A stretch of DNA of 51,422 nucleotides, counting the filler, from Sphacelaria rigidula (taxonomy: Eukaryota): assembly GCA_964200075.2 (NCBI GenBank). It is 3 parts of 3 records of this genome, joined end to end, with 100 filler letters (N's around TTAATTAATTAA, not from the genome) between each part and the next. Parts side by side here need not be neighbours in the genome. Positions count along the whole stretch, not along the records: positions 17,185 to 34,264 come from CAXNAA020001175.1; 2 more parts are not named here. The stretch is one strand, 5' to 3'. Made by a program: the position numbers and the translations under genes. Below, one piece after another: positions 14,616-34,364 of this stretch (position 1 is its first letter; the number at the start of each line of letters is the position of its first letter). Under the pieces are notes generated by a model, which was not told the origin of the DNA, did no database searches, and saw only the letters and a program-made list of their open reading frames with translations.

Positions 14616-14891
14616 GGCCCATTCATATCGACACAATGTTTCGGAAATCTCCGAAAATGTCGAGAGTGACAGGGTACCTGATGATTCTCGAATGCTTGCG
14701 AGCGCCACGGGGTATTCACGGGGAAGCTCTCCGAAGCGCTGCGTTGCAGTCCGGAGTTTTTGGACTCCTTCAAAGATGAAGCTTCGGAGAAAAAATCACG
14801 CCGCTCATTCTTGAAGAAGGCTGGACGCAGAGTCCGAGAACTCTGAAAAATCGGACATCTCTCGAGAAGGCAGTGTCGATTAAAATGGGCC
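14616..14891. mobile_element. PIF/Harbinger (Tourist-like) MITE
   Basis: TTA target duplication on both sides; TIRs GGCCCATT..ATCGACAC / GTGTCGAT..AATGGGCC. Confidence 0.6.
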
Positions 14892-17010: not shown

Positions 17011-17070
17011 TTAACAGCCGATTTTATATTTTGGGGTTCAAACAAAATATGGGGCTGAAGTGGCATATCT
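17011..17070. repeat. 60-bp repeat terminus just before assembly spacer 1 (also at 34205-34264)
   Basis: ttaacagccgattttatattttggggttca(a/t)acaaaatatggggctgaagtggcatatct, one mismatch between copies. Confidence 0.85.
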
Positions 17071-17084
17071 CTCTTGCACGAAAG

Positions 17085-17183
17085 NNNNNNNNNNNNNNNN
17101 NNNNNNNNNNNNNNNNNNNNNNNNNNNNTTAATTAATTAANNNNNNNNNNNNNNNNNNNNNNNNNNNNNNNNNNNNNNNNNNN
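17085..17183. other. Artificial contig spacer (N-TTAATTAATTAA-N, stops in all six frames)
   Basis: N runs around TTAATTAATTAA at 17129-17140. Confidence 0.95.
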
Positions 17184-17392
17184 NGAGGAGGAAGGGGGAG
17201 GGGGAGAAAAAAGAGTACAGTAGGAGAGAAAGGGTGAGCCGTGGGGTAATTCTCATACTGGAATCTCACTTTCTTCCTCGCAAATTTGTTCGATGTATTC
17301 AAGAACTTGCTTCACCAGGACGCTCATGCTCATTCCCAGTACGTGTTTTGTTGTCGTGTTATCACGCGTGTGTCGGAAGCAGCAATACTTAC

Positions 17393-17474
17393 GATTATTC
17401 TCTGGGCAGCAATGTTGTTGGGGGACAGCAACAGCGCTCGGTCGCAGCAGTCGATCGCGCGGTCTAGCTCTTTC
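17393..17474 (-). CDS. TPR gene exon (TPR4), last exon before assembly spacer
   Basis: cacag acceptor, gtaagt donor; GKELDRAIDCCDRALLLSPNNIAAQRII. Confidence 0.8.
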
Positions 17475-20400
17475 CTGTGTCGCAGGGCAAGAGAGCGCGA
17501 ACCACAAGCAGAAGTCCGTGGGAACGTTGAGTCGATGGGGATGGGGATGGGTGGGAGGATACTTACGATCTTGCATGCTGTAGTCATTTGAGCGTGGACC
17601 TCGCATCCCTACGAAGCCGGGACGGAGCACGCCGGGACCTCGCCAGAAGAGGCTCGTGCTCAATCACCAAGCGCGAAGGGCCATCATGTGTTCGGCGAGT
17701 CGCATGAGGGGTGACCTCCATCCTGCCAAGATTGTTCGGCTCGAAGCGTACTGATTACCTTGCACATAGATGACAGCCTCCTACGAGTTTCTTCATTTCC
17801 TGGTATCGACACTTCCAGAGACAGCCATGGCTCATACACTGCCTCATGGATGTGTCACCACTACAACACTACATAGTAAGATCATCTCCTTTGCGCGGAG
17901 TTGAGGTTCTCCCACGCTGCACAAAATTATTTAGCTCGGCCATCAGTATGGCTACCACAAAAAAAAAAAACGCAAGCGAGAAAAACGGCAACCTGATCAG
18001 GTCGCTCCCTTTAGCGAACAAAAAAAAAGTCCTGTGAAAACGCTTTTCTGGTCCTCTCCTCCGTCGTTTTACGCCCTGAAAGAGGGCTAGGCGGAGATTG
18101 ACACCTTGGAATGACATGCTCTACTATTTAAGGAGGTTCCAGGACATCTTCGCGTTTTCCAGTGGCCGCAGTTTTTGCTTTGGTCAAACAAGCGGTTCTT
18201 GTCCAGAGACGATCAAGTCTGCCACCGGAAATGCGAACATGTCCTGGAACCGGCTTAACGAGTACAGCAGTTCATTCCAAGGTGTTAAACTCGGCCTAGC
18301 TCTCTTTCAGGGCGTTGAACGACGAAGAACGGCGCACACGTACGTGTGTGCAAAAAGGGGGGAAGGGGATAACCCGAAAACTACAAGCAAAAATAGCAAA
18401 ACGAAATGCCTTATACAAAAAAAATGAGCGAACGGCAAAGGCATGCTTCGTTCATCCTGTCTTCTTCAATCCAGCCCTATCCATACGGGACCCCAACAGC
18501 AAACACGATAGTTAATAACAATAATCAGGGCAGTGATCACCGTTCGTTTCGCCTAGAGGCACATATGCCACAATTTCCTGGACCGACGATAACCAGCAGC
18601 AGATCATAAAACCCACGGAATGATGTCTCAATGTCGCCAACAGCACAACACTACCCCTACGTCGCACGTGCAAATACCTTTACGAAACAACACACCCTGA
18701 TAGCTGGCGTGGGGGGTCGAAGCGGGGGTCGACAAGCCCAGACATGGACACAAATCTGGGAGACAAGTTTCGTGTGAATGGGGTATGCCCAGCGGTCAAC
18801 AGTTGCCCAAGTTCTGGGTGACTGACCCTTACATACAGCCTTTGCTTCCAAGAAAAGGGGGGCTCCTGCCGTCTGTCTATTATCCGACATGAGTATCATG
18901 TTGACCACCATACCCATACCCATCCATCGGTGACAACATTTTGACGTACACCCACCCCACAGGAATCGACGATCTGGGCCCTGAGGTTCGCTTCACTACC
19001 CGTCATACTCCACGTATCCTATTCGCTGTACTACCAGCGTACACTCATTTTGATTGATCGATTCATCGATTCATTGTCGCACTTCAACTGTGCGATAATC
19101 AATCACTCATGCAATATATAGATACAGTAGGAGTCGGTTTCTCTCCCCGCACTGACCCTCTGAGGGCGAACTCGGCGTTGTCCAGGTGCACCTTCACCAC
19201 GTTGACGTTAGCCATGCCCAGGCGGCACTCCCTGCTGCGTCGAACGTCATCATCCAGCCGCGGATGCTGGATGGGCCATGGAAGGACAAAACATACACAA
19301 CAACAATAAAGGAGAACAGTATAACGTGACGAAAAAAATGGAGGTGAAGAGGTAGGTGAAGTCATGATCTTACATGCTGCATTCCCATGACCATTGACCT
19401 TGCCGTGGGATGGGGGGGCGTGTTCATTTGTTGCTTGCCTTAGTCGTTTGAGAATTGACCACGCATCCCTTTCGAGACGGAGCACCGTTTCTACTCCCAA
19501 TAGAGACACCTCCAACATTCTGGCGCTCATTGGGGGGGGCGGGTGGGCGGGTACTCATGTGTTGCTTTCTTCAGTCGTTTGACGAGTTACCACGCACCCC
19601 TTTCATTGATTGGCCTTCATTGATTAGCCTCGCATCCCTACAAAGCCGGGACGGAGTACGCCGAGTTTTAGCCGGACCAGACTCGCATTCAATCACCGAG
19701 CGCGAAGCGCCGTAGTGTGTTCAGCGATTCGCATGAAGAGTGAGCTGCATCATGCCAAGATTCTTTGGCCCGAAGCGTACGGATCATCTTGCATGAGAAT
19801 GACAGCCTACAATGAGTTCCTTCATTTTCTGGTATTGCCACTTCCAGAGACAGCCACGGCTTACACACTGCCTCATGGGTGTCCCACCATGTGAAAACTT
19901 CGTGTTAGATAATCCCCTGTGCGAGAAACGAAGGTTTTCCCACCCCGCACAATATAGATCTAGCTCGACCACCATCATGATTACCGCAAAACAAAACGCA
20001 AGCGCGCAGAAAAAAATCAGTAAGGTCGCTTCTTACGACAGACTAAAACAAAAATCTGAATAATTGCCTTTTTGGATCTTCTCGATCTTTTACGCCCTGA
20101 AAGAGAGCTAGGCGGAGTTCGACACCTTGGAATGACTTCCTCAACTAGTTGAGGCGGTGCCAGGACTTCTTCCCGTTCTCCGGTGGCCGCAGTTTTGACT
20201 TTGGCCGAACAAGAACTTTCGTCCAAGAAGGGTCAAGTCTAGAGAAAAATGGCTATTTTTCCTAGATTTGACCCTTCTTGACCGGTCCTGGACAAAAGAA
20301 TTTGTTTGGCCAAAGTCAAAACTACGGTCACCGGAGAACGGGAAGATGTCCTAGAACCACCTCAACGAGTAGAGCAAGTCATTCCGAGGCGTCAAAACCC

Positions 20401-21093
20401 GCCTAGCTCTTTTGTGGGGCGTACTCAAACTCTCTTGTGGGACAGAAAAAGACGTGAAAGCTCCGAAAAAGCACGTTTCCAGATTATTATTCTCGTCTGT
20501 TACAAGGAGCGGGCTAACCTGATTGCCTAGCTCACGCAGCGAGTGGCGTGTTTTACAGCGTCGTTGCCAACCGACGCCAAGGAAAAAAATTATGGAGGAT
20601 GACTTGAGAAAACACGAAACCTATTTACATACCTGAAAACTGAAAAGAGGGAGTTAGTTATAGATAGATAAAAGGTTTGTACATCATATTATAATCATCT
20701 TGGAGCTTGACCGAGGCTCTTGCCAAAGATCTCGGGCTTCACGAGATCTCATTATCTTCCGTTCGACCGCTGGAGATATACTGTAGTTTAGCAGTACCTC
20801 GTGGCTGTTTGGAGTAACGAACCGCCGCGGTAATCGTATTGCGGCTCTCAGATCATTGTCAAGGTGCGCACCCAAAAAAGCAGGAAGGACCACAGCCAAA
20901 AAACACATCAGCCGCAAATTCGTTTCCCGCCGCTTGGGTTATACGTACGTCCATAGTCCCTTTCTTGAACGCCTCGTCCGCCCCATGAAGATCCCCAGCC
21001 ATCAACAGTGCCTTGCCCATACGCGGATATGCCTGATGTCGACGGTAGATATCATGTGCATCGAGCAACGGGTAGCGAGAGGCGAGGGGAGGA

Positions 21094-21143
<50 letters not shown>

Positions 21144-24100
21144 ATTATGTGAGCATCGACCACACACGCAGCTGACTCTCTTCGCTTGTGCAGGACTACA
21201 CCTTCCTCGTTTAGGCTCTTCCCTCAGCCATACTTATCCGTTCATCAATCACTTCGTCCGCACTTTGTACCCATTGGAGGGGGAGTTCGTCCGGTCTGCC
21301 TTACTTGAGGTCGCTCACGCCTTTTTATCGTCAACACGATCAGAAGTGTGTCGCAACGACGAAAACGTCCCCTCCCCGCGCCCCCCGAAAGAAAAACACG
21401 CTTGGCTTCAGTAGTGTTCACCAGTTGGTCGATCAGAACCTTCCCGGAATTCTATTACTTAATTTGAGTGTAAACACCGATATTCGAATCTTTAGCGGGG
21501 CTGACAGCCCCAACTGCCCCTCGCGTGCGCAGAATGCGTTTTCGTCAAAATCGGCGCCTGCGGCGGCGTTTTGAGGTCTGCCAATGCCACACTTTGCCCA
21601 GGGAACGCTTCACACCCCTCTCGCCCGAGGGTTCTCGGTATGCCTTGGGTTGGGGTTAGGCTTGGGTTAGGGTTAGCGTTATTAAAAAAAAAATGTTTGC
21701 AAGAAATTTCGTCATCGACCAAGTGGTCAACAAACCTCCCTGGCTTACGTTCACGGGTACAATCTTACGTGTGGCAGTACCTCTTCCCCAACTTGCTCGT
21801 TCTTATACAAAACGCACGACAGCACCAACCATCACGACACAATTCTCACACTTCGCCAACAGGAGGAAGGACGCCTCCGCCCCTCGCACCCCGTTCCGTT
21901 TCCTACGTAACCTCACCACGTATCTAGGTCGTGGCTTGTGGCCGTGTCTTTACATGACAATCAATCGCACGGACCCTCAGCGACTTTCCAAAAAGAGTAT
22001 GGCCGACCACACACAAGCAAACGTCAGACGTCCGTGCCTCGCTCCACATGAATCAAATATTTCTTCATTACCTGAGCCCATTCCGGCTCCGCGTTCAACG
22101 CCATGGAGCAATCGATCACGGCACTTCGGTAACGGCCGCTCATGATGTGGGCCGCTGCCCGGCTCCAGTACAGCGGCGCTAAGCGCCCGCGTCCGCCGTC
22201 CCCCGGAATGGGCTTGCCGCCGCCTGGACCCCGTCCGTCCCCGTGCGCCGCCACGTGCTGCAACAGCTCCTCAAGGGAGGCGATAGCCGTCGTGTACTCC
22301 ACCGAGGCTGCTTCGAAGCTGTTCTCGCCGACCAAGTTATGCCGAAATTCATTCCATTACGGTGTTGTTTTTTCATGTTGTTGTTTTCAACGTATACATG
22401 TCCCACATTCAGTCATCGATGTCATCACCGTTCGTGTTGGGTTGTGCGACGGCAAAGCAACAACAACAGGAGGAGGAGGAAGAGGGAGAGGACGAGAAGG
22501 AGGGGTAAAACAGCAACCAAAACAAGAGGCACGGGCATGGGCAAGCATATATATGAGGCATGCACAATGCGCGAGGGAAAATACTACACGGAAAAAGAAG
22601 AGATGGAGAAAATATTTATATGAGGCATGAAAAAAAAAAAAAACGATATGACTTGAGGCGTGGCGCCCCAGAAAAAAACGTTTGCGATGACACAATACCG
22701 GCTGTCGAAGTAGCCGGCAAACCACCCAAAAGATGGGGATGGTGGGGGGAGGGGGGATGTTGAGATGTCGCTTCGTGAGTGATTTCGCTGTTGTCACAAG
22801 CATGAAATAATGTATCGAAATGGTTTTCATCGAACTTCATTGTTGTCGATAGTTGAACTTCGACTACCTCCACAACGCCGGGGCAAGAAAAAGTGGCGCT
22901 GCAGGTATAAGAGGAAAGCGAAGATGTGGTCGGCTGTGAGGTCAAGATTTGATTGCGTATCGCAAAAAAAATGCTCATGTGATGCTCAGTGTCGACCATT
23001 ACTCACGTCTCGGGAAAAGATAGGGACGTCAGTCTGCATCGCATCAACGGAGGTGAGTTCAGTAAAGCACGTTGGGAAAACAAACCACCCGAGCAAGGCA
23101 AAGGAATGTTGCCGCACCACTTGTCCATGTAGGTGCGGCGAGCGCTCTCCTTGTCCGCTTCGTGTCGCTTCCGCAGCCGATCCAACTTCGCCGCCGCCTC
23201 CAACCGTTGCTGCTGCTCCCGCGCCGCCTTTTGCCTGCCACGGCACGAAAACACGAACGAGAAACGCGAGCAGAAGAGGGGAAGAAAAAAAAAACGTACG
23301 CGTGATTCATGCCCGCAGGAATAGCATACCATTCCTGTACTGTGCAAACAAGGTCCGACGAAGTCGTGAATGATGTGCGCAAAAATCGTACGCATCCAGA
23401 CGGTGAGTTTTTGCGTTCGATTTTGTGGTGGACTAATATAAGGGGCACGTGGAGATCATATTGCTCCACGGGTCATGCATGATGTACTCATCAACAGCTT
23501 GTGCCTCACTTCTCTTCGCGTTCCCGCTGGGCCTCGGCCTCCTTCCCCCTCAACCACGCCTGCATGATGGCATCAGCCCCTCCACCTACACTCCCACCCC
23601 CACTCACTCCCCCACCCACGCCGCTCGCTACCGTTCCCCCGGCCGCAGCCGACGCAGCAGATGCGTTCCGACCAATGTTTCTGCTGATGGCGGCCAAAAC
23701 GTCGTAGGCAGGGTTGTAAGGAGGCGGAGGGGCGTCGTCACTACCCTCCGCAGTGGGATTCGCACTCGCGGGGGCGGCAGCTGCTGCGAACAGCGGTTGA
23801 CTGTTGTTCAGCTGGCCCGGGCTGCCGCCGGCAGTCACGGCGGATGGCGAAAGCCCCTGCAGCTTATGCAGGCCGTGCGGCTTCGCCTGCTGTCGCTGTT
23901 GCTGGAGCGGCGGAGGGCGCGGGAGCGGCGACGCTTGAGCCGCCGTCCCGTCCTTATCCATGGCAATGCTGCTAGCGACGCCTTGACGAGTTTGTTGTTG
24001 TTGCTGTGGCTGCGGTTTTTTTAGCAGGTTTCGGGTGCTGGCCCTGAGATACGAGGGTGTGGTCACGTCGTGAGGCCGGGTAGAGCGGAGCGGGGTGAGC

Positions 24101-27100
24101 GGGGCGAGGTGATGAAACACGGAGGGAACGTTGCGGCATGATCACGGGAAGTGACCATACACCAACTCTTTATCGAGCAAAAAGTGTTTGGTACAGCATG
24201 AGCTCGTACGAAGGTATAGATACTCCATGTGAAATGTGATTCCATGATTATAGATACTCTTGTTGTACGCGCACGCCCAACCTTTTACGAAGCAAGGGTG
24301 GATGGTGCAGCTACAGTCTATACGGCGTGCGCTCTTCGCGATGTAGCGCTCGTGGCTGTCGCTACCCACACGTGCGGTTTAAGGTCGACCTCCTACAGGA
24401 GGAAGCGTGGATGATACAGCACCAAGCTGCGCTCCACGGTGTACGTAATGCGCGTGATGTGACTCTCGACTGACCCGTCCACATGTGCCGTAACCCGCCT
24501 CGACTTCGAAAGATTACTCGTGTAACTGAAGAACAGGCAAAACGCGTGGGACCAGGCTGCCCGCTTGGGTTAACGAGTGGGTATTCTGCTCGCGTCACGC
24601 CAGAGAGCAGCGGTCCGTTTGCGAGGAAACGGGACCCAGCCGGTCGACATCGTCCCACACGCTTTTTGGACCCTTTGGGAACCCCTCTCCTCCCCTCCCG
24701 TCCCCGGTTCAGACGCCTCATTATTTCATGCGCTGAAAAAGAAGAAAATATGGGAAAAGGAAATACCGACAACAACCATTTCTACGGCGGAAGGCCACAG
24801 AAGACCACCGACATACGCCATGCTCGCACCAAAAATATCGCCCCGGTGCGGTCGGTTTAGTTTTATCGAATGACGTGACGCAACGGGTCAGGTATTTCAA
24901 CTTTGTACACACAGCAAAAACCGGCACTGCGGTCTCTGAAATTCATTGAGAAAAATCAGCACCACCTGTGAATTCTCTATATATTTAGTCCCGTGTGGCA
25001 CTGCGGCGCACATTTATAGAGGTGACGCACCCCACCGGAGTATTGTTGTGCTGCAGTCCGGAGGTCGTACCCGCCCAACACTTGGCAAGCGTGCTAAGCC
25101 ACATCACAGGAACGAAGTAGTATGGCCGAGCACACAAAAATCTCCTCGCCACACGTGGAAGGGTTGAGGTGCGGTACAGCATTCACGCGATTCACCGCCA
25201 GTTGGAAGCGGGCGCGGGTCCGAAGAACACGCCTTGGTCGAAACACAGTAGTGGGCGGTCTAACTATTTAGGGGTGTTTGGGGGTTAGATTTTGGTACAA
25301 CAAAATAGATCATCTTCGTAACACAGTGCCCAAGTCAGTCTTAGTTGGTGTCATCGGGCACAACGAGTAAATACCGCGTTCATCAGGAGGGTGTTTTCGA
25401 CAGAGAAACACGGTTTTTCGGCCCTAGTGCACTGAGTAGGCAGAATTTCAAAAAAATAAAACTGTACATTTTTTCATAGATATGGTCGGGACGGGCTTGA
25501 TCGACCGAAAATACCGAAGAGTAAGAATCTAGGTTGAAACGTGGTAGGACCCCCGATGACCGGTCAGCCTGTAAGTCACTCAATATTGAGTACAGGTTAC
25601 TTTTTCTACTTGGAATGTGGAGCGGATACAATATCTTGTGATCCCCGATGTGATAAGGGGTGCCAAGCGAAAAAGAGCCCAAGAAAACCGCCAATTACGA
25701 AAAAATCACGAAATGCCACAAAATGAATAGTTAGACCGCCCACTACTGTAGTGGTCCTTGGAAGCTGCAAATAATCAAACACATGTTGTTGAAGAAAAAA
25801 GCACCTCGGAATCAGCACTTTTCCACTGCCAATACCAAAAGGGTTAGGGGAAAGCACGGTAGTCTTGCACACTTTCAAGGGTTGGCCAGCTACACATGAC
25901 ATCACCACGCGCACTTTTACAACAACATATGCAACGCCTTCGCTCACCCTGGGTTTGCAGTATCTCTTCAAGAGCGACACAAATATCCAAGGGATATCGC
26001 ACGCACGGCAAGTGGGGGGGGAGGGGGGGCGGGGGGAAGCAAACACGACTTTCTTATACTTTCTGCTTCATCTTCACCTCCGTTTGCCAGAGCCTCTCGT
26101 CGACGTAGACGGCGCAGGCGACGCCTGCCCGAAGCTGAAGCCTGTTCCGCGCGGAGCGGGAGGCGGCACGGTTTCGCAGCCGGCCGCGGGTTGAGAGTAG
26201 CCTCGTCCCTGCTCATAATGTTTTCGTGTGCCATTGGTGGGACGGGCGGAAGAACGCGATCATGGGTTCAGTCTTGTCGACGGCGAAGCCCAATGCGCAT
26301 GGATCAGTGTGGTGCACGCAGGTTGGGATTGACCAAAAATCACACACAAGCGAACGGGGCCAACTCAACAGATGGGATCGTGGGAGTTGAAGGGGAGCAA
26401 TAACCGGTACGCATGTAACGCGTGTAACGCGAAGCTTAGGCAGCGAGGGGATGGATACCCGGTACGCAATTGTTCCCCACGTACAGCATCATGGGGCAAG
26501 TACATGGAAATCATCGTATAAATGTGGTCACGTGTACATGCTGGACTCTGTTAACCCGACGCCGACCCATGTCCCTGGTAACAAGCGTCCTTACATAGAT
26601 ACGTCATCACTACTAATAGGAAGTGGTCATCTTTTACAGAGAGATCTCAGAAGCGCAAGGCGCTCTTCGGTGCGCCAACGAAATCCTTCTGCCTGAGGGA
26701 AAAAAATCTGGCTCGAGATGGCTCGTCTGCACTCAAAACGCAGGCGAGGTGCAAGGGAACATGTGCTGCTACATTCATCTCGGGCGACCACGACGTTTCT
26801 GGACCGCGTAAAGCAACAGAGCCGCTCCCGACCCTGAAAAAGTACAAACTAGTCAACGCAAAAATCAATACCTCGGATCCTTCCTGCTCGCGCCGGTGCT
26901 CGCGCTGATGCTGCATGAACTTTTGCGCAAAGCTATCGTTCCCGCCGTCACCTCCGCCGACCTCGCTCCGCCGTGCCTGCTCCCCAAACGCAAATCGCGG
27001 CGGATTTACCTTTTGAGCCGGGACCGCCTTTCCTCCCGATCCTACACCCATCCTTGTCGCGCACGATGTATATCCGTCTGCCTTGCCGTTCGCTTGCACC

Positions 27101-30100
27101 CCCGCCGAATCCGCGCCTGATGGAGAAGCCACCCCGAAGGTGAAACGCACACCCCCATTAGAGGCGCTGCTGTCGCCCCCGAATGGAGCTGCGGGGGCGG
27201 GCGATGCCGCCGCAGACAGAGGCGAGGGCTCAAAATCGGCGTCTACACACGACGAGAACCATGAGCCTGTCGGTGGCTTTGTAGGTGCAGTTGTCTCTCC
27301 ATCCATTTCGTCGATGGTACCTCCCGGCCCGGGATCACCGCCACCTCCAGGGTCGCCAGTGCTCGGCGATCCAGCGATATTCCAGAGAGAGCGCGGTAAT
27401 GATTGCGAAAAGTTGGTGTTGGTGCTGCCACCGCGGTTGCCCCTGTTTTGTGATGCCGACGCCGTGCCCATCGCCGCGTTGCGTCCTTCTGGGGTGAAGT
27501 ACGCTGATGCTCTTGAGGAGGCGGCAGAGGAAGGTGGAGGCGGCGACATTACGGAAAACGGGCCATTTCCACCGCCACCAACGCCACGTGCTGCCACTGA
27601 CTTCGGAGTTGACGGCGCCGCCGTTGCATCCGGTAGGATCGATTCCCCATCAGAAATCGGTCCGAGGGGCCCCGCGGACATGTCTCCTGCCTCCTGGGAT
27701 GTAGCATGGCTCGGTCCGGTTCCACCTGAGGCTGAGTCTGCCGTCGAAGTCTTCGCACTAGAAGAGCTCGCGCTTGCCGCTCTCGACTGCGGGTTGAGCG
27801 GACTTCGGCGAGAGGCAAATACGGACGAGAAGAAACCATTTTCTGATGACGTCGTGGCAACCCCTGCCGACTCTGCTGGTGCTACTCCGCTCTTGAAAGT
27901 CCCCGCCCACGGTCCCCAAAACCCATTCGCGCCCACCGCTCCCGTCGAATTTCCCATCCCTCCTTTCATTGAGTCCGCGTTCACGTGCCAGTCACGTCTT
28001 CCGGGCGGCGGCGGGGGAGTGGGCGAAGACCCCGATGTCGGGCGCCCCCGTTGTCCTCTCCGCCCTCGGGTTTTACGGGTATTCTCTCGCTGGTCGGTTG
28101 GAGGAGCGCCAGTGGCGAACATGGCCCCTTTTCTGTTCGGGGAAGCTGGCGGTCTCGGAGTTGGCGTCCACCCGGCTTTCTTGGGACCAAAGCTGAAAGC
28201 AGGCGGTAATATTCCTGGACGCGAAGAACTTTCTCCAGCTGGCGGCTTCTGCTCAGGGGATGTCGGCTGGACGGGTCGCACCCCACCGGAGAATTCAAAC
28301 CGCACTGGCGTCGCCGTTGACAACGGCGGCGGGCTACCGAACGGCGATTGGGTGGGAGCCGCAGGTGCGGCACCGTTAGCGACAGACTTAGAAGGAGTCG
28401 GGCCAAAGACAAAAGAAGACGCCGCGCCGGGTGAAGCAGCCGCGACGGGCGGGGTTGGTCGTGCCGTCGCTGCCGGCAGCGGTGCCGACTGGGTTGTGGG
28501 TGTTGGCACCTCTTGTTGCCTGGTCTGGAAAACGAACCCGGGGTCCGACGGAGGCTCAGATACATCCATCATGTCCGCTGGTGATTGACGGCCTGTCCCC
28601 ACAGGCCGGGTTGTGTCGCTCCCGAAGGCCGGGCCTCGTGTTAGCCTTGACGAGGCATCGCCGCTGCTGACTCCACGGTGAGCGCTCTTCGACATTTTAT
28701 CACCCGTAGTCCCTGATCGTGCTTGCCTACGCGACGCCGGCTGTTTCTTCCCAACCCCAACCCCAACCCCAACCCCAACCCCAAAACTGAACTGACCGGG
28801 TCGCTGAGTCCCTGCCGGGCTCAGCAGCGGGCTCCCTCCAGGCCGCGGAACAACACCTGCGGCTCTGGGCGCTTGAGTCGCGGGTGCTTGTGACTTAAAC
28901 GGAACATACGCGTTTGCGAGGTCTACCCGAATACGTGCTTCGTCCTCCTCCGAGCGTCTCCGCTCGGCGGCTGAATCCTCGCTTGCTAAGCCGCTTAATA
29001 CAGTATTACCGCTACCTTCGCTCCTTTCACCAGGAGAAGCTGTGTCCTCTCCTCTCCGCCGCTGCGGGATCGAACGCATGCCCCGGCGGCCGACGGAGAA
29101 TTCGGAACTTTCGCTATTGCTACTGCTACCATCAGTACTATGTCCCGCGGTTTGAGCTGTTACGGTCGCCCTCAATGATGCTGCCGCCGCCACTACCGCT
29201 TCTGCCGACTCTCTGCGCTTAGAGGCTGTCGATGGCACCGCTGCCTTCGCCTTTGAAGCTTCCGCCTTATGACCGCCATCTAGATGGAGGCCCCGCAAGC
29301 GATTGAGCTCTTCCTGGCCACCGGACAGTCCAAACCGCAGATAGTTGCTCTCTTCAGAGTCCGTTGGCTCTGGGCTAGCCGACGCTGCCGCCATCGCCGC
29401 CTCCAACCCCTCCTTCACCTGAACTCTGGGCACTGACCCAAGACCCGAAAACATGTCAACTTTCGCTGAATGCGATGAGGTCAAGTTTGGCGTCGGTGAG
29501 GATGATCCTTCGCTCGAGGACGAGCTACTCCCTGCTTCTTGAGCACGCCGCCAACGGCTTATACACGGTATCGAAGGGGATGGAGGCCGGCTCCCACGGC
29601 TTCGTGTTTCAGATTTCGCGGAGGGAGCACCGTTGGCCGCCGGCTTCGTACTACCGTCCGCCTCGGGACGGAAAAACCACTCGAGGTACCTGACCATGAG
29701 ACAAGCGAAACAATCGATCTGGGATTTTGATATCGGAAATAGCAAATGAAGGCAGCGCGATAGATAGAGAAACCCGCTCTTTCGGGAGTAACACCAAACA
29801 GCCAACAGATGAAATCACACCAAGACAACGGACCCAACTCACCATACGGTGAACTCGACACATGAGAACGAATATGAGCTGAGGAGCCCCGCAGCGCGCG
29901 CCGACTCAGTGGCATCACCACGCCGTCGCGCCTCCGGAATGCACAGCAGTTCCAACAGATCTTCGAACGCCGGGGTGGAGACCCTCCCCGAGTTTTGATC
30001 CATCTTGCTAAAAGCCGTCACGGCCGCTTGGTACTCGCGGTTATATGCAGCCTTCCTCAGCCGCTCCCGGTGCATCCCAGCAAAAACGGCGTCCATCCCG

Positions 30101-33056
30101 ACAGTTCCTTCCGAGTTCCTCGCCGCAGCTGCGCCACATTTTCTAGCAGAAGCAGCAGCAGGACCAGCAGCAGCACCAAGAGCACCGGTTGCAGGCTCCG
30201 GAGCAGAATACTTCCTCGCCGTATTGCGTGCCGCATTACTGGTTCCTGGTGTGGTGCCAGTACCGTTGCTGTTTGTAGTTTCAGCTCCTTCAGCCGCCGC
30301 GGTCGCCTCCCCGCCGTCTCGGGCGCCAGGCATGTCGCGCCCAGGAGAATAAGAGCATGCCGACGAGGACGAGCAAGACGAGGAAGATCTAACATGTTTC
30401 GATGGCAACGGAGTCGCCGACGCGAAACGCATTCCACCATTGCCGTTAGTCTGGCCTGTGCTCGGAGACAGCGGCGCGTTGAAATGCATCGCGCCTAGAA
30501 GCACGCCGGCCGCGTCCACATCGTCAAGCCCAAACTGCAAGTGTATACGACGATACGATTGGTGAGGGGGAGGGGGAGAATCGAAGATTTCCATGCCTTC
30601 GACGACACATGTCTGCGTGCATAGCTGGATTGAACAAGGATTAGTTTCTTCAAGACGGGATATATATATATATATGTTGAATAAACTCAACACATCAGAT
30701 TGAGGGGGGAAGGGGGTCGTTTCACTACTCTAGTACTCGAAACCCTAGGGTTTATCTTATCCTGTGAAGGGGAAGGTCATTTGTCAATCAAGACCATGAT
30801 AAACACCACCCGCCTCGGCAGGCTGACCACAACCAAGGCCTGCCGTAGGCCATGTCCAATCGAGACCGAAAAAAGAGGTGGGAAAAGGAACGAGCGTCGT
30901 AAAGCAGCATGTTGATTAGTCGCCGCAACCATGGACCCGGTGAACACCAACATGCTGCTTTTGGATGTTGTTCCTTTTCCGCTTCTTTCTTGGTCCCGAT
31001 GAGACACGGCCTTACAGCGGGGGGATCCTCAACACACGGAATGCCCTTCTGACTACCTGATGAGGTGCACGATACTAGCCACATACTGATGTGGCAATGT
31101 AGAGGCAAGCAGCCCTAACATGATATTTCGAAGGTGCTCATCAGAGTACAGTTGCGGTCAGCTCACCATGCATCCCATGAAGGACGGCGTAGCTACTCGT
31201 ACGCGAGAGCGCGGTGACATCCTCCTACATGCGCAGGTTTGAAAACAGGCCAACTCCCTTGGCGAACCAAAAGACAACCAACCGAAGTAAACGCGCAAAA
31301 AGTGTCCTTGCCGTTCTGGGTATTGGGCGCTATACTTCATGTATCGAGGCCTGCTCGCTTCAATCACGAACCGCCCCTGGTGGGATTCCGTGTGCACGAG
31401 TCTGTCGTAGAATCTCTTTTTATCATCAGTGCATGGGACGGTGGGTTTGGGTTGTGTCTGAGGTTGAGCAGACCCAACGTCCAACTCGTGAACTTGGCCG
31501 AAAACGTTATGGACTACTTTGAAGTATATAATAACTGCATTGTTGTAGAACTCTTGGCGGATGTCTTATGCCAGCTGCAGTACTCGCGGCTGAAGCTCAT
31601 GACGATGCAACAGAGTGCGGTATCCGTTCACCTCAGGGCATAATATGACGTCGTTAAATGATGGACATGCCAAGCTGCACGCACTCGTCAGGATGGCCTA
31701 AAGGCCAACCGCAGCTGCCTGTACTGGACACTTCCGGCAGTGTCAAGTACGACAACACATGCCTGCACCGTGAGGTAACTGCTATATAGCTTTGTTGCAC
31801 TGCAGTGTTTGATCAGTACGAGCAACTCTGTACCGTACCGTACTGCAATATCTGTCGGTATTGTCCCACGATGTCAGTACTTTCGTGGTGAAGTCAACTG
31901 ACAGCAGGACTGTACATCTACAACACAGCAGGCAGTATAGTTCGTACAAGTAGTAGAGTACAGTACTGTAACAGTGTACAACAACAGTCCAGTCCAGTCC
32001 AGTCCAGCACAGGACAGCATACGAGAATACGATACAGTCGGTAAGTACACTACAAAGGGTCGGGCGAGGACGAATTTCGATCGCGACGCCCAGACCTACA
32101 GTTAAAACATTTCAACCCCTGGTCTTCGAAACCTAGACCTATCCACACACAATACATGCTATTACGTCGATAGGATGCTACCGTGAACCTAGCGCGCAGA
32201 TACCATGGCAAATAGATACTGGCAACAGTGACAGGTAGACATAATCTCCTGGATACTGGCGAACAAAAGCACGTGCAGCCATCATACTGCCGGCGCGGCG
32301 CAATGGTCCAAGTTATGGTGGCACGTGGGCACACCGCAGCTGCTGACCACAATCAATGTTGCTCGTGTCTAGAAACGGCGAACCTACATTCTGCACTGAC
32401 ATGACGACAGCCAAAGTTAAGCTGTAGGAGATGCCTGACCCCATGACTGCATCCAGGTGCTGGTCCTGTATTGCAACTGCAGTTGTTGAGACGTCACCCC
32501 ATTGACTGTGCCAAAGGGGTACTGTACCCCAGCTCTCGAATGTGCTGGCCGGTCTCGTTCCTTGTTACCGTCTAAGTCCTTTGGTACTGGGTAAAGTGAG
32601 GAGTTGCTAGTGCAATCACGCTAAGGATCTCATCGAAAGAAGTGAACACGTCACTGAACACTCAAGATCAGGACAAACAGGCGATACCCACAAGCTCCAG
32701 ACATCCCATATTTCTGTGTACCACGAAAAAATCCGGTAACAACATGCACCCCACTGCTGTCCCTCGGAGTTAATGTCCAAGTGCAGTGCCATATATCTCA
32801 CTTAGGAGCACCTAACATTTACTGGCTGCACTGACTGTACTGTATGTACTGTACTGCCCTTTATGTAGTGTCGTCTGCATTGTTGTGCTGATGGCGTGTT
32901 ACTCCTTTCGATGCGTCGAGCTTCGATGAAGATAACGAGTCATGGCCAACACACCTTGATCTCCCCAAGCTTCCACTCCAACTCGGATAGCTTCTCCAGG
33001 GTCACCTCGTCCCTGTTCAGACCAAGCTCCCTCAATGCCTTCTGTACATCCTCCAT
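17393..33056 (-). CDS. Multi-exon gene (3' end missing at assembly spacer): large TPR-repeat protein, DNAJC7/Tpr2-like co-chaperone type, with N-terminal degenerate EF-hand pair and FxFG-rich disordered region. Exons: 33056-32955, 31224-31167, 31056-31016, 30534-29843, 29689-26872, 26208-26078, 24043-23510, 23234-23118, 22318-22072, 21032-20949, 19266-19157, 17474-17393
   Basis: All 12 exons have AG/GT boundaries and intron phases match throughout (5016 nt, 1672 codons, no internal stop). TPR consensus segments: KESARRTYMDKCFEAASVEYTTAI, LYWSRAAAHIMSGRYRSAVIDCSMALNAEPEWAQAYPRMGKALLMAGDLHGADEAF, KELDRAIDCCDRALLLSPNN. No J-domain is visible in the window. Confidence 0.8.
17524..18324. repeat. 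Intronic dispersed repeat, copy A, ending in a foldback hairpin (18062-18324)
   Basis: Colinear with about 19530-20423 (cgcatccctac..aagccgggacggag..caatcacc..cacttccagagacagcca..tacgccctgaaagag). Confidence 0.8.
19157..19266 (-). CDS. TPR gene exon
   Basis: atccag acceptor, gtcagt donor; HPRLDDDVRRSRECRLGMANVNVVKVHLDNAEFALR. Confidence 0.75.
19410..20423. repeat. Intronic dispersed repeat, copy B, ending in a foldback hairpin (20091-20423)
   Basis: Colinear with copy A; the head at 19410-19487 recurs at 51335-51416; a hairpin arm is also related to 9370-9465. Confidence 0.8.
20949..21032 (-). CDS. TPR gene exon (TPR3)
   Basis: catcag acceptor, gtacgt donor; AYPRMGKALLMAGDLHGADEAFKKGTMD. 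Confidence 0.85.
21098..21142. repeat. (GT)n microsatellite, intronic
   Basis: Uninterrupted GT run of about 22 units. Confidence 0.95.
22072..22318 (-). CDS. TPR gene exon (TPR1-TPR2)
   Basis: aacag acceptor, gtaatg donor; FEAASVEYTTAI...LYWSRAAAHIMSGRYRSAVIDCSMALNAEPEWAQ. Confidence 0.85.
23118..23234 (-). CDS. TPR gene exon (coiled coil and start of TPR1)
   Basis: ggcag acceptor, gtgcgg donor; QKAAREQQQRLEAAAKLDRLRKRHEADKESARRTYMDK. Confidence 0.75.
23510..24043 (-). CDS. TPR gene exon (Gln/Pro/Ala-rich linker, start of coiled coil)
   Basis: ctcag acceptor, gtgagg donor, phase 2 to 2. Confidence 0.75.
25383..25700. repeat. Dispersed non-autonomous repeat, copy 1 (partner 38703-39000)
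   Basis: tcaggagggtg..gatcgaccgaaa.taccgaagagt..cccgatgaccggt..gtaagtcactcaatattga..atgtggagcggatac shared. Confidence 0.8.
26078..26208 (-). CDS. TPR gene exon (GRGYSQPAAG...GFSFGQ...GKR)
   Basis: gagcag acceptor, gtgaag donor, phase 0 to 2. Confidence 0.7.
26872..29689 (-). CDS. TPR gene giant exon (2818 nt): Ser/Ala/Pro/Gly-rich with FxFG motifs
   Basis: Lies within the 1052-aa ORF; gtcag acceptor joins TG|G to give WYLEWFF; GAG|gtattg donor. Confidence 0.85.
29843..30534 (-). CDS. TPR gene exon with degenerate EF-hand pair
   Basis: ttgcag acceptor, gtgagt donor; AFSKMDQNSGRVSTPAFEDLLELL ... FSCVEFTVW. Confidence 0.8.
31016..31056 (-). CDS. TPR gene exon (GSQKGIPCVEDPPA)
   Basis: catcag acceptor, gtaagg donor, phase 1 to 0; restores the frame into the next exon. 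Confidence 0.55.
31167..31224 (-). CDS. TPR gene exon (EDVTALSRTSSYAVLHGMH)
   Basis: tgtag acceptor, gtgagc donor, phase 0 to 1. Confidence 0.55.
32955..33056 (-). CDS. Putative first coding exon of TPR gene (MEDVQKALRELGLNRDEVTLEKLSELEWKLGEIK)
   Basis: Preceded by a tag acceptor at 33069-33071, ends AAG|gtgtgt, phase 0 matches the next exon; a further upstream exon is possible. Confidence 0.6.
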
Positions 33057-34204
33057 CAAGGCGCCTCCCTACGAGTAGGACCGGTTATAAGAATTTCGGT
33101 TTTCCTGATGACAGCGCAAGGTACAGGGTAGTTGACCCGACCCGCCTTTCTGGAAGAAAAGCAGCACTAACTACACCGATTTCACCGAGATTAATCTTCT
33201 GAAGCCACGAAGATGAGGGCGGGAGCCATTATCGGGTTCAAGAGCACATTGTGGTTATGCTCGCGGACCTATCTATGGCTCTGCCTCTCAAATTTGATTT
33301 TGATCGCGTGACAAACGGTTTGCCGATTCTATTTTTTTATTTCTGTAATATTGGACTCATTGACTAACATAAAGTCCCGTTGGCGGTACAAGCACGTCTG
33401 AGACGTGTAGAGGCTGCTCTCATGCACTACGTGAGGCAAAAAAGTCCTCCAGCACAAAAAAGACGAAAAAAATCAAGATCAGCTTCCCTGAAACCGCATA
33501 CCTGGTCTAAAGTGTGCCGTGCACTTTGATCTGACACCGAGGCACTTTCACCAACTCGAACAATCCCATCACACACCAAATAAATAAAGGATGGTGGCGA
33601 TACCCGTTGGTGACAGTTTGGTATGGATATCAAGATGCACGAATTCTCGTCTCGTTGCCCAAAAAACTATGGGAGTGTAGCCGAAATCAAGACGAGAACA
33701 ACGATACTTGGTTTTGTTCCTACAATATCGCATTTCGAAAGATACGGCCGAAATAAATATTGTGAAAAATATTCGGCAAAAGAATGTCTGGGATACGACG
33801 TGCGCCAGCCTAGAAACGGATTTGGGCGCTCGAAGCAGTATCTTAGACCCAGACGAGCTGGGCAATGATCCGCATATCGTATTATTCGTTCAATCAAGGA
33901 GAAGGAGCACATCTGCTCAAAAGTCCGGGCCGATATTTTCTCGTTGAATAAACCCCATGTCTAGTGATTTCTATACCGTACGGAGATAGCGTCTAATATA
34001 CTAAAATCTGGATGTAACCCCGAACGATAGGTTCAGCGGATGACGCAGATTTCATACGGGTTGACTCCCAATGTATGTTCGAGTGCGGATCATGTACCAA
34101 TCAGTCATTCGTAATGAATAACAAATGGTGAAGTTGTATATTCAAGGTCATGCCGCACGAATCATGGACTTGAAATGTGTACACTTCAGGTTGTTCAACA
34201 CGAA

Positions 34205-34264: not shown

Positions 34265-34364
34265 NNNNNNNNNNNNNNNNNNNNNNNNNNNNNNNNNNNN
34301 NNNNNNNNTTAATTAATTAANNNNNNNNNNNNNNNNNNNNNNNNNNNNNNNNNNNNNNNNNNNN
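34265..34364. other. Artificial contig spacer (N-TTAATTAATTAA-N)
   Basis: N runs around TTAATTAATTAA at 34309-34320. Confidence 0.95.

What the first reader, a model, noticed from the sequence alone, without database searches (positions are those of the whole stretch)
26078..29689. Nucleoporin-like FxFG domain fused to a TPR co-chaperone-type protein
Seen: one 2.8-kb exon and the following exon encode about 980 Ser/Ala/Pro/Gly-rich residues with spaced FSFG, FVFG, FSFG, FTFG, FAFG and FSFG motifs, plus variants (FVFQ, FEFSG, PAFG, SPFG, APFG). These splice in frame to C-terminal TPR repeats. Known: spaced FxFG motifs in disordered sequence are the hallmark of FG nucleoporins and karyopherin-binding regions; DNAJC7/Tpr2-type TPRs bind Hsp70/Hsp90. 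Inference: a candidate nuclear-pore- or condensate-associated chaperone adaptor in brown algae, possibly analogous to plant TPR-DnaJ proteins with long FG-like N-termini.
Basis: partly seen in the sequence, partly recalled or inferred. Interest (0 to 1): 0.7.

Follow-up and report, generated by a model that had tools for sequence, protein, structure and literature searches.

The report
Giant brown-alga TPR–J co-chaperone with FxFG motifs
A brown-alga gene encodes a very long Hsp70/Hsp90 helper protein whose disordered front half carries a few conserved nuclear-pore-style FxFG motifs, an unusual combination whose purpose is still untested.

Summary
On the minus strand, exons 29689-26872 and 26208-26078 encode about 983 Ser/Ala/Gly/Pro-rich residues. 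They hold six FxFG motifs, against 0.19 expected; 0 of 20,000 shuffles reach six. Spliced contigs from three public runs join ten exons with canonical GT..AG introns into one open 1639-codon frame. In order it encodes a small N-terminal domain, a disordered region of about 1160 residues, a coiled coil and co-chaperone-type TPRs.

The gene is cut at a contig end (17185), because the window is several contigs joined by N/TTAATTAATTAA spacers. A related alga's transcript ORF (P0005) continues into a second TPR domain and an HPD J-domain.

Orthologue fragments keep the FxFG motifs in place (5 of 5 and 4 of 5) while the spacers are only 20-35% identical. The motifs therefore look like selected short linear motifs.

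The protein fits the DNAJC7 / plant DJC31-DJC62 architecture: a large N-terminal region, TPR domains and a J-domain. It is not a typical FG nucleoporin. The motifs are sparse, there is no Nup family hit and no pore-anchoring domain.

A role at nuclear pores or in FG condensates stays a hypothesis (about 0.2-0.3). Verdict: a new variant of a known kind, of moderate interest.

The parts
32955..33287 (-). Exon 1: 5' UTR plus the first 34 codons (ATG at 33056; MEDVQKALREL...). An in-frame stop lies 4 codons upstream.
   Evidence: Spliced contigs X1/X2/X8 run 32955-33188 or 32955-33287 and join to 30534 (table 8). Frame.
29843..30534 (-). Exon 2 (231 codons): a low-complexity stretch, then a conserved helical domain of about 85 residues (EF-hand-pair-like, a lead only) around 29843-30093.
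   Evidence: It is 62% identical to the P0002 segment, with 39 invariant columns. Atlas structural neighbours are EF-hand proteins, all below the tool's bar.
26872..29689 (-). Exon 3 (2818 nt, about 939 codons): S/A/G/P-rich disordered region. It holds five FxFG (28780-28791, 28402-28413, 28186-28197, 27133-27144, 26983-26994) and the FxF variants.
   Evidence: No Pfam family at E<=10.
29281..29307 (-). Conserved LNRLRGLHL motif. The pattern LxxLxxLxL resembles a leucine-rich export signal (the pattern is recalled, not tested).
   Evidence: Conserved as LGRLRDLTL (P0011) and LTRLRDLKL (P0002).
28744..28793 (-). Repeat encoding GVGVGVGVGVG directly after the first FSFG. All assemblies, RNA-like and DNA, break here.
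   Evidence: table 8: contigs end at 28743 and restart at 28794 in X1, X2, X8 and in the DNA run X5. Not conserved in orthologues.
28039..28071 (-). Conserved basic RG patch, TRGRRGQRGRP.
27895..27921 (-). Conserved Trp/Phe motif, FWGPWAGTF.
   Evidence: FWGSWSGSF in P0011.
26078..26208 (-). Exon 4 (131 nt) with the sixth FxFG (GTGFSFGQ, 26128-26139) and the basic GSGKRR.
   Evidence: Identical GTGFSFGQ and GSGKRRA in the Ectocarpus fragment P0007.
23510..24043 (-). Exon 5 (178 codons): Q/A/G-rich linker and the start of the charged coiled coil (ADAIMQAWLRGKE...). The listed RNA-like contigs leave about 23579/23592-23622/23667 uncovered, inside the exon.
   Evidence: joints 24042|26077 and 23233|23509; table 8 pieces. 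Continuous open frame.
23118..23234 (-). Exon 6: coiled coil and the start of TPR domain 1.
22072..22318 (-). Exon 7: TPR motifs 1-2 of TPR domain 1.
   Evidence: TPR_2 E 0.013, below the cut-off. 57-71% identical to five orthologue fragments and 100% to P0003.
20949..21032 (-). Exon 8: TPR motif 3.
19157..19266 (-). Exon 9: linker helix after TPR domain 1.
17393..17474 (-). Exon 10 (81 nt): a further TPR motif (KELDRAIDCCDRALLLSPNNIAAQRII), followed by a GTAAGT donor. The rest of the gene lies beyond the contig end.
   Evidence: joint 17473|19156, side 81. (GTAAGT). (TPR_1 E 5.3e-05, 23.3 bits, below the 27.8 cut-off).
17085..17184 (.). Artificial spacer (N44 + TTAATTAATTAA + N44) between two contigs. 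The gene's contig is 17185-34264.
   Evidence: The 17,080-nt contig length is given for P0003.

Best explanation
This is one gene for a very large J-domain co-chaperone. At least 1639 residues are encoded here, and about 2040 are expected if the missing end resembles the orthologue. It belongs to the DNAJC7/TPR2 - plant DJC31/DJC62 type.

Shown:
- Ten exons are spliced into one open frame.
- The frame encodes a small conserved helical N-terminal domain, a disordered region of about 1160 residues, a charged coiled coil, and a three-motif co-chaperone-type TPR domain plus one further TPR motif.
- The disordered region carries six positionally conserved FxFG motifs and several other conserved short motifs.

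Shown in an orthologue only: a second TPR domain and a C-terminal J-domain with HPD.

Inferred mechanism:
- The J-domain switches on the Hsp70 ATPase.
- The TPR domains dock Hsp70/Hsp90 tails.
- The N-terminal domain and the short motifs in the disordered region decide where, or on which partners, this chaperone activity is delivered.

The FxFG motifs are selected binding motifs, not a dense cohesive FG-repeat domain, so the protein is not a structural FG nucleoporin. My leading guess for their partner is transport-receptor- or NTF2-like proteins, or FG-rich phases. That would bring Hsp70 to nuclear pores or FG-nucleoporin assemblies. It is a guess, held at about 0.25-0.3 within this explanation.
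For: Gene structure:
- Seven CT..AC joints (GT..AG on the minus strand) appear in 1 contig each of X1, X2 and X8, and in 0 contigs of the DNA run X5 (table 5).
- Two more joints come from table 8: 29687|29841 and 30534|32955.
- All 9 introns are canonical GT..AG.
- The spliced frame has 1639 codons and no stop.
- Independent public ORFs span junctions: P0009 reads ...EFTVWYLEWFF across E2/E3; the NCBI model P0003 runs from E3 to E8; Ectocarpus P0007 runs from the last FxF motifs into the TPRs.

FxFG motifs:
- 6 observed against 0.19 expected, 0 of 20,000 shuffles.
- Orthologue fragments show the same enrichment: P0011 has 5, 0 of 20,000; P0002 has 4, 0 of 20,000.
- Position is kept: 5 of 5 in P0011 against 35% overall identity (317 of 897 residues), and 4 of 5 in P0002 (the fifth is FTFA) against 20% (194 of 961).
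- P0014 keeps 2 of 2, P0012 keeps 1 of 1, and P0007 keeps the last FSFG.
- Phe is kept more often than Gly: 23 of 35 against 51 of 121 in P0011.

Family:
- P0005 is 59-76% identical to exons 6-10. It has DnaJ PF00226 at E 1.1e-24 (86.8 bits, cut-off 27.8) and TPR_1 at 1.5e-17, and it reads HHPD.
- PDB matches of the TPRs are Hsp70/Hsp90 co-chaperones: SPAG1, STIP1, RPAP3, PP5, SGT1, SGTA, Hop.
- All ten listed Atlas neighbours are TPR-bearing clusters; seven are shown or named as J-domain/DnaJ, four of them named DNAJC7, and one is named for an APC subunit. Scores are 0.94-0.96.
[quoted passage not shown] Their first TPR domain starts at residue 533 or 608 (PMC2939883, passages).

Precedent for the guess: the J-domain proteins DNAJB6 and Jjj2 act on FG nucleoporins, and for DNAJB6 Phe residues of its own disordered region are needed (bioRxiv abstracts and section titles).
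Against: - The J-domain and second TPR domain are not seen in this species. The contig ends at 17185. tblastn of P0005 residues 269-662 finds nothing in the window. 92 minus-strand ORFs at 9554-17023 gave no TPR or DnaJ hit, but that DNA belongs to another contig.
- No single RNA-like contig listed bridges the FG exons and the TPR exons. The listed pieces leave two holes: 28744-28793, where the DNA contigs also break, and about 23579-23667 inside exon 5. A shorter TPR-J isoform from an internal start is not excluded.
- The runs are only guessed to be RNA. That they are rests on their spliced contigs.
- The window's TPR exons reach only sub-threshold Pfam scores one by one.
- TPR domain 1 lacks part of the EEVD clamp: N to S and K to Q in the alignments. 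Hsp90/Hsp70 tail binding by that domain is therefore doubtful.
- Nothing here shows what the FxFG motifs bind.
- FG density is far below that of FG nucleoporins.
Confidence: 0.75

Rival explanations
1. The protein is a true (possibly mobile) FG nucleoporin of brown algae. It would sit at the pore and bind transport receptors through its FxFG motifs, with the TPR-J part as an added chaperone module.
For: - FxFG in disordered, net-basic S/A/G/P/T-rich sequence, with K+R 10.3% against D+E 7.9%.
- The motifs cluster: five FxF within aa 565-763 and three within 1114-1228.
- The motifs are conserved.
- Recalled, not tested: contexts such as PAFSFG.K resemble yeast Nsp1-type repeats; Nup50/Nup2-type nucleoporins have few FG; Nup358 combines TPRs with FG.
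Against: - Only 11 FG, 6 of them FxFG, in the 1639 residues encoded (10 within the 983-residue E3+E4 region).
- No Pfam family at all on the 938-residue exon at E<=10, so no Nucleoporin_FG-type model and no Nup anchoring domain.
- HMMER against 1.84 billion proteins finds only 7 proteins, all fragments of this gene or its orthologues.
- The folded C-terminal part is a cytosolic co-chaperone family.
Confidence: 0.08
2. The FxFG motifs are real binding motifs with no link to nuclear transport. Candidate partners: a membrane or ER adaptor (plant DJC31/DJC62 are reported at the ER), an NTF2-like stress-granule protein, Hsp70's substrate site, or the protein's own N-terminal or TPR domain (autoregulation).
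For: - Conservation shows selection but not the partner.
- The motifs are sparse, like ordinary short linear motifs, and sit among other conserved motifs: LxxLxxLxL, an RG patch, FWGPW, FFxxxFAxRR.
- A review reports DJC31/DJC62 at the ER membrane, citing Dittmer 2021 (PMC9407819, passage).
- TPR domain 1 has a degenerate EEVD clamp and so may bind something else.
Against: - No endocytic motifs: NPF, DPF/W, FxDxF and the clathrin box each occur 0 times.
- No positive evidence for any particular alternative partner.
Confidence: 0.4
3. The FG part and the TPR-J part are separate transcripts or genes that only look fused.
For: - The listed RNA-like contigs do not overlap inside exon 5 (about 23579-23667).
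- Public protein sets hold the gene only as fragments: P0009, P0010, P0003, P0013.
Against: - Both contig sets end inside the same exon, one coming from the 24042|26077 joint and the other from the 23233|23509 joint. The frame is open throughout.
- The hole lies in the part of exon 5 that encodes a Gly/Val/Ser-rich stretch, and the DNA contig is continuous there (record 11).
- P0003 and the Ectocarpus model P0007 each contain both FxF(G) motifs and TPRs.
- P0005 breaks at the same Gly-rich spot.
Confidence: 0.04
4. The FxFG motifs are chance products of an F- and G-containing low-complexity sequence.
For: G makes up 13% of the region. Plain FG is only modestly enriched: 10 observed against 4.9, reached by 347 of 20,000 shuffles.
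Against: - 0 of 20,000 shuffles reach the observed FxFG count in the window protein and in each of two orthologue fragments.
- Positions are conserved against 20-35% background identity.
Confidence: 0.01

Closest known systems
Plant DJC31/DJC62 (AtTPR16/AtTPR15) and the Chlamydomonas homologue Cre02.g108800
   Same: - A large, poorly conserved N-terminal region, then two three-motif TPR domains, then a C-terminal J-domain (PMC3720927 passages; PMC2939883 passages).
- By my eye, the printed AtTPR15/16 TPR motifs (e.g. ..YGNRAAARISLGRLREAISDC..) resemble exon 7-8 residues (..YWSRAAAHIMSGRYRSAVIDC..).
   Different: - The N-terminal region here is about 1450 residues, against about 530-600 in the plant proteins.
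- It starts with a conserved helical domain and carries six conserved FxFG. I could not test whether plant N-termini have such motifs.
- TPR domain 1 here lacks clamp residues that the plant proteins are said to keep (PMC9407819 passage).
Metazoan DNAJC7 (TPR2)
   Same: - TPR domains followed by a C-terminal HPD J-domain.
- Nearest language-model clusters include four named DNAJC7, with scores 0.94-0.95.
- It is described as a Hsp70/Hsp90 co-chaperone (PMC2939883 passage).
   Different: Clusters named DNAJC7 are about 460-530 residues long with no long N-terminal extension. They have no FxFG-bearing disordered region.
FxFG-type FG nucleoporins (e.g. Nsp1, Nup153, Nup50/Nup2; names recalled)
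   Same: FxFG cores with a variable second residue, in disordered, Ser/Thr/Ala/Gly/Pro-rich, net-basic sequence. The motifs are conserved while the spacers drift.
   Different: - The motifs are sparse: 34-351 residues apart, and 6 FxFG in total.
- No Nup Pfam family and no pore-anchoring domain.
- The folded part is a chaperone cofactor.
J-domain proteins that act on FG nucleoporins: human DNAJB6 and yeast Jjj2
   Same: J-domain proteins that work with Hsp70 and whose own disordered, Phe-containing region matters for dealing with FG-nucleoporin condensates (bioRxiv 10.1101/2025.10.20.683411 and 10.64898/2026.07.22.740058; abstracts and section titles only).
   Different: These were not compared by sequence here. 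This is a functional analogy only, and nothing was tested.

Membership tests
FG nucleoporin | Many closely spaced FG repeats in a disordered domain | tested here: not met
   11 FG in the 1639 residues encoded, 10 of them in the 983-residue E3+E4 region; 6 are FxFG. FxFG spacing is 50-351 residues; with FxF variants it is 34-85 inside two clusters.
FG nucleoporin | Match to a nucleoporin family model or a pore-anchoring domain | tested here: not met
   0 Pfam families on the 938-residue exon at E<=10. The other exons give only weak TPR hits or unrelated sub-threshold hits.
FG nucleoporin | Location at the nuclear pore and binding of transport receptors | not testable with these tools
   No localisation or binding data. 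No eukaryotic receptor sequence was available for a complex prediction.
DNAJC7 / DJC31-DJC62 type TPR-J co-chaperone | C-terminal J-domain with HPD | tested here: inconclusive
   - Not in the window: the contig ends at 17185.
- Present in the orthologue ORF P0005: PF00226 at E 1.1e-24, reads HHPD.
- The species' own RNA-like contig has about 3.57 kb more beyond exon 10. This is worked out (a 4278-nt record, of which 709 nt are placed).
DNAJC7 / DJC31-DJC62 type TPR-J co-chaperone | Two three-motif TPR domains N-terminal to the J-domain | tested here: inconclusive
   - Domain 1 is encoded here (exons 6-8, plus a further motif in exon 10).
- Single-exon Pfam scores are below the cut-offs.
- The near-identical Ectocarpus fragment matches RPAP3 at 6.7e-06 and PP5 at 1.4e-04.
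- Domain 2 is seen only in P0005 (TPR_1 at 1.5e-17).
DNAJC7 / DJC31-DJC62 type TPR-J co-chaperone | Carboxylate clamp K5N9-N6-K2R6, which binds EEVD tails (motif as quoted in PMC9407819) | tested here: not met
   - Domain 1: in the RPAP3 alignments the clamp Asn aligns to Ser (lyWSRA against NRA) and the clamp Lys to Gln (dQAYpR against tKAysR). The Arg is kept. N9 aligns to Arg by my own reading.
- Domain 2, orthologue only: 4 of 5 kept; the GN of SPAG1 aligns to AG.
DNAJC7 / DJC31-DJC62 type TPR-J co-chaperone | Large, poorly conserved region N-terminal to the TPRs (plant/green-alga branch) | tested here: met
   About 1450 residues precede the first TPR. They are 20-35% identical between brown-alga orthologue fragments.
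Auxilin / Swa2-type J-proteins (clathrin uncoating) | Clathrin- or adaptor-binding motifs in the disordered region | tested here: not met
   NPF 0, DPF/DPW 0, FxDxF 0, clathrin box 0; one DLL inside the N-terminal domain. The motif patterns are recalled.
EF-hand pair (N-terminal domain) | EF-hand family model or fold | tested here: inconclusive
   - No EF-hand Pfam hit.
- Atlas structural neighbours are EF-hand proteins at TM 0.52-0.75 by query, all 'under the bar'.
- My own AF2 model is too poor: mean pLDDT 45.2.
- The PDB profile search gives best E 0.22, with an EF-hand protein at E 1.3.

The most novel reading that the evidence does not exclude
Brown algae have built FG-nucleoporin-style FxFG motifs into an Hsp70/Hsp90 co-chaperone. 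The protein would enter the FG phase of nuclear pores, or cytoplasmic FG-nucleoporin condensates, by the same contacts that transport receptors use. There it would fire Hsp70 through its J-domain. That would make it a self-targeting 'pore chaperone', combining in one chain what DNAJB6 or Jjj2 achieve with a different disordered region. The conserved LxxLxxLxL and basic patches would let it shuttle.
Probability: 0.2. Interest if true: 0.8.

Novelty: new variant of a known kind. Interest (0 to 1): 0.45.

Why it matters
If the FxFG motifs do bind transport receptors or FG phases, this protein physically links the Hsp70 machine to the pore's permeability barrier. The question is current: DNAJB6 and Jjj2 are being studied for exactly this (abstracts). 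The protein would offer six discrete motifs to mutate.

Independently of that, three points stand:
- It extends the DJC31/DJC62-DNAJC7 architecture to stramenopiles, with a much larger and differently equipped N-terminus.
- It is a clean example of short motifs conserved in a fast-drifting disordered region.
- Public protein sets hold this gene only as fragments: P0003, P0009, P0010 and P0013 from this species, and truncated or read-through models P0002, P0011, P0012, P0014 and P0007 in relatives. Domain-based surveys will therefore miss the fusion.

Tried and rejected
- No whole genome is held for the window.
- No RNA holder is listed for the stretch. The runs used are RNA only by guess and by their spliced contigs.
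The range 17185-34200 was then laid, so nothing beyond the contig end could be laid.
- Search for the missing 3' exons in the window:
  - Pfam on 92 minus-strand ORFs of at least 28 aa at 9554-17023 gave 0 TPR or DnaJ hits.
  - tblastn with P0005 found only exons 6-10.
  - This is explained by the window being joined contigs.
- Word-based homologue searches:
  - With exon 3 (near lengths), only the species' own fragment P0003 came back among 8000 scored candidates; P0002 was crowded out.
  - With exon 2 (longer lengths), only P0002 came back.
- Exhaustive HMMER with exon 3 found 7 proteins, none outside this gene family. This says little about distant relatives, because disordered sequence does not align far.
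- N-terminal domain:
  - Pfam gave only a sub-threshold mS39 PPR hit (E 0.0026, 18 bits, cut-off 27).
  - PDB phmmer gave nothing below E 0.37.
  - A two-sequence profile gave best E 0.22.
  - The single-sequence AF2 model had mean pLDDT 45.2, so no fold search was run on it.
- Auxilin/Swa2-like reading rejected: no clathrin or adaptor motifs.
- Class A/B 'G/F-rich region' reading rejected on architecture. In the orthologue the J-domain is C-terminal and lies hundreds of residues from the Phe motifs.
- The equal length of introns 8 and 9 (1682 nt each) is not a tandem duplication. They share only a repeat of about 620 nt at 76% identity.
- Literature:
  - 0 papers hold FxFG + J-domain + TPR.
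  - 5 papers hold Phaeophyceae + DnaJ + tetratricopeptide; by listing only, none is about this protein.
  - Only 1 of the 15 listed papers of the DNAJC7/FG-repeat/nucleoporin search holds DNAJC7, a testis proteomics study; listing only.
  - Dittmer et al. 2021 is not held and is known here only through PMC9407819.
  - No supplements were opened.
- Frame and term slips were corrected.
- No complex prediction was run. No binding claim is made, and no eukaryotic receptor sequence was available.

Full report
**What is at the coordinates.**
The minus strand holds a stop-to-stop frame of 1055 codons at 26647-29814. It contains FSFG, FVFG, FSFG, FTFG and FAFG, plus FVFQ, FEFS, PAFG, SPFG and APFG. 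A short frame at 26074-26259 contains a further FSFG. The window carries 186 N in five runs. Two places read N44 + TTAATTAATTAA + N44: 17085-17184 (read) and 34265-34364 (the same N layout). The window is therefore several contigs put end to end. The gene's contig is 17185-34264. No whole genome is held.

**One spliced reading frame.**
Eight public runs hold the stretch, and none is on record as RNA. Four were laid. X1, X2 and X8 behave as transcript assemblies. Each has one contig with each of seven CT..AC joints: 17473|19156, 19266|20949, 21031|22071, 22318|23118, 23233|23509, 24042|26077 and 26207|26871. X5 has none of these joints. Its contigs run unspliced through the same DNA (records 11-14). 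Table 8 adds joints 29687|29841 and 30534|32955.

With the cuts moved by 0-2 bases, which leaves the joined sequence unchanged, all nine introns read GT..AG. This gives the following exons:

| Exon | Coordinates (minus strand) |
|---|---|
| 1 | ..33287-32955 |
| 2 | 30534-29843 |
| 3 | 29689-26872 |
| 4 | 26208-26078 |
| 5 | 24043-23510 |
| 6 | 23234-23118 |
| 7 | 22318-22072 |
| 8 | 21032-20949 |
| 9 | 19266-19157 |
| 10 | 17474-17393 |

The 81-nt 'side' of the last joint, together with a GTAAGT at 17392, shows that exon 10 is followed by another intron.

Joined in a script, the exons give one frame of 1639 codons without a stop, starting at ATG 33056. A stop lies four codons upstream.

There are caveats. 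The listed RNA-like pieces leave two holes. One is 28744-28793, a GVGVGV-coding repeat where the DNA contigs break too. The other is about 23579-23667, inside exon 5, in its Gly/Val/Ser-rich coding part. No single listed contig therefore links FG exons to TPR exons.

Four things argue for one transcript:
- Both contig sets end inside the same open exon.
- P0009 reads across the exon 2/3 junction.
- The NCBI model P0003 runs from exon 3 to exon 8, and the Ectocarpus model P0007 runs from the last FxF motifs into the TPRs.
- P0005 breaks at the same Gly-rich spot.

P0003 removes 84 codons of exon 5 as an intron. The RNA-like contigs cover these codons without a gap (23623-24042).

**Are the motifs more than chance?**
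Exons 3+4 hold 983 residues, 38 F and 128 G. Six FxFG are observed against a shuffle mean of 0.19, and 0 of 20,000 shuffles reach six. FxF occurs 8 times, reached by 2 of 20,000 shuffles. Plain FG occurs 10 times against 4.9, reached by 347 of 20,000.

The motifs form two clusters: aa 565, 650, 691, 729 and 763, and aa 1114, 1164 and 1228. The E3-E5 stretch is S 14.0, A 13.8, G 12.9, P 11.0, R 7.2 and T 6.2 %, with K+R above D+E. It matches no Pfam family even at E<=10.

**Orthologues.**
Homologue searches returned only brown-alga fragments:
- P0002 (1135 aa, with intron read-through).
- P0003-P0008.
- From an exhaustive HMMER pass of exon 3 over 1.84 billion representatives, 7 proteins in all. 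P0003, P0009, P0010 and P0013 are 100% identical pieces. P0011 is 45% identical over residues 143-938. P0012 and P0014 are short pieces.

In a MAFFT alignment, scored:
- P0011 keeps all 5 exon-3 FxFG as FRFG, FVFG, FNFG, FTFG and FFFG, while 317 of 897 window residues in its span (35%) are identical.
- P0002 keeps 4 of 5 (FNFG, FVFG, FTFG, FVFG; the fifth is FTFA) at 194 of 961 (20%).
- P0014 keeps FTFG and FAFG. P0012 keeps FAFG.
- Ectocarpus P0007 keeps GTGFSFGQ exactly, but reads PRFRFRAG where the window has PRFAFGEQ. The 'G' that the script printed there comes from gap placement.

I dropped the comparisons of the exon-4 motif with P0012 and P0014 (HFVG, FSCS), because those models run into the intron after exon 3.

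In P0011, Phe is kept at 23 of 35 positions and Gly at 51 of 121. The orthologue fragments are themselves enriched: 5 and 4 FxFG, with 0 of 20,000 shuffles each.

The spacers change by repeat expansion. P0002 has runs of ATPARQS and PPATPPVY, and the window has GV repeats.

Other blocks are conserved too:
- ASASPxPTDS
- EELxRLRxLxLDGG
- ADMMDVSE.PSDP
- RGRRGQRGRP
- TPPPPPGRRD
- FWGxWxGxF
- FFxxxFAxRR
- SAYFTPEG
- AQxFMQxQR

The FxFG motifs therefore belong to a set of selected short motifs in a drifting disordered region.

**The folded parts.**
Exons 6-10 align to residues 56-268 of P0005 at 59-76% identity. P0005 is a 662-residue ORF from a transcript contig of another alga. It goes on to a strong TPR (PF00515, E 1.5e-17) and a DnaJ domain (PF00226, E 1.1e-24, 86.8 bits against a 27.8 cut-off). 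It reads ...LALLHHPDKN....

Its PDB matches are Hsp70/Hsp90 co-chaperone TPRs (SPAG1 1.7e-20, STIP1 9.6e-17, RPAP3, TOM70, PP5) and J-domains. The first TPR domain, taken from the Ectocarpus fragment, matches RPAP3 (6.7e-06), PP5, SGT1, SGTA and Hop.

All ten listed language-model neighbours of P0005 are TPR-bearing clusters; seven are shown or named as J-domain/DnaJ, four of them named DNAJC7, and one is named for an APC subunit. Scores are 0.94-0.96, and cluster lengths run from 364 to 851 residues.

The window's own TPR exons score below the Pfam cut-offs when scanned one by one.

On the EEVD clamp, the alignments show the following:
- Domain 1: the clamp Asn is Ser, the clamp Lys is Gln, and the Arg is kept.
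- Domain 2, in the orthologue: Lys, Asn, Lys and Arg are kept, but the 'GN' aligns to 'AG'.

The J-domain of this species is not in the window. Its RNA-like contig has about 3.57 kb beyond exon 10: a 4278-nt record, of which 709 nt are placed.

The N-terminal part is exon 1 plus the end of exon 2. It contains a segment of about 64 aligned residues that is 62% identical to P0002. EF-hand proteins are its structural neighbours in the Atlas, all below that tool's bar. My own AF2 model was too poor to use (mean pLDDT 45.2). Sequence searches were not significant.

**Comparison with what is known.**
[quoted passage not shown] Their first TPR domain starts at residue 533 or 608 (PMC2939883, passages). 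A review reports them at the ER membrane, with a K5N9-N6-K2R6 clamp shared with DNAJC7 and interaction with HSP70-1 and HSP90-2 (PMC9407819, passage citing Dittmer 2021). I could not read Dittmer 2021. The brown-alga protein has the same layout, with a pre-TPR region more than twice as long.

It fails two tests for FG-nucleoporin membership: motif density, and a family or anchoring domain. It also lacks endocytic motifs of the auxilin/Swa2 kind.

J-domain proteins that handle FG nucleoporins exist. They are DNAJB6, where Phe residues of its own disordered region are essential, and yeast Jjj2 (abstracts and section titles). This makes an FG-directed role conceivable but does not show it. I found no paper combining FxFG, J-domain and TPR (0 hits).

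**Verdict.**
- The nucleoporin/condensate role is open. I put it at about 0.2-0.3.
- The best reading is a lineage-specific, greatly extended member of the DNAJC7/DJC31-DJC62 co-chaperone type. Its disordered arm carries selected FxFG and other short motifs that target Hsp70 activity.
- It is a new variant of a known kind, of moderate interest.

Noticed in passing
window 17085-17184 and 34265-34364 (also N10 at 45837-45846): The window is not one piece of chromosome. Contigs are joined by N44 + TTAATTAATTAA + N44 spacers (an all-frame stop linker). Genes at the spacers are cut, and DNA on either side need not be adjacent in the genome.
   Followed up: partly
window 17599-18220 and 19628-20240 (introns 9 and 8), with inverted partial copies at 18059-18327, 20092-20187 and 20277-20423: Both introns are 1682 nt long and each holds a copy (76% identical over about 620 nt) of a repeat. 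In this region the summed contig word depth is orders of magnitude above that over the exons in all four runs, as expected for a dispersed repeat. Many spurious joints come from it.
   Followed up: partly
window 28744-28793: A repeat inside the coding sequence encodes GVGVGVGVGVG right after the first FSFG. It is absent from orthologues and breaks every assembly, RNA-like and DNA. A (CA/TG)n run in intron 7 (about 21088-21151) does the same.
   Followed up: partly
window 23679-23930 (inside exon 5): The NCBI model P0003 removes 84 codons here as an intron. The spliced RNA-like contigs cover 23623-24042 without a gap, so this is either a mis-prediction or an alternative splice.
   Followed up: partly
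P0002 residues about 255-430; C-terminal tails of P0011, P0012, P0013, P0014: Public gene models of the orthologues read through introns (after exon 2 and after exon 3) and stop there. The FG part and the TPR-J part are therefore filed as separate, unnamed proteins in several brown algae.
   Followed up: partly
window 29953-30012 (exon 2) and exon 1: The segment FSKMDQNSGRVSTPAFEDLL looks like a degenerate EF-hand loop flanked by helices. The exon-1 peptide (MEDVQKALRELGLNRDEVTLEKL...) also looks like a helix-loop-helix. No significant family match was found.
   Followed up: partly
window 23720-23740 region (exon 5, aa 1354): A PPPPY (PPxY-type) motif lies in the Q/A/G-rich linker. In the local alignment it falls opposite a gap in the Ectocarpus fragment. 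Its significance is unknown.
   Followed up: no
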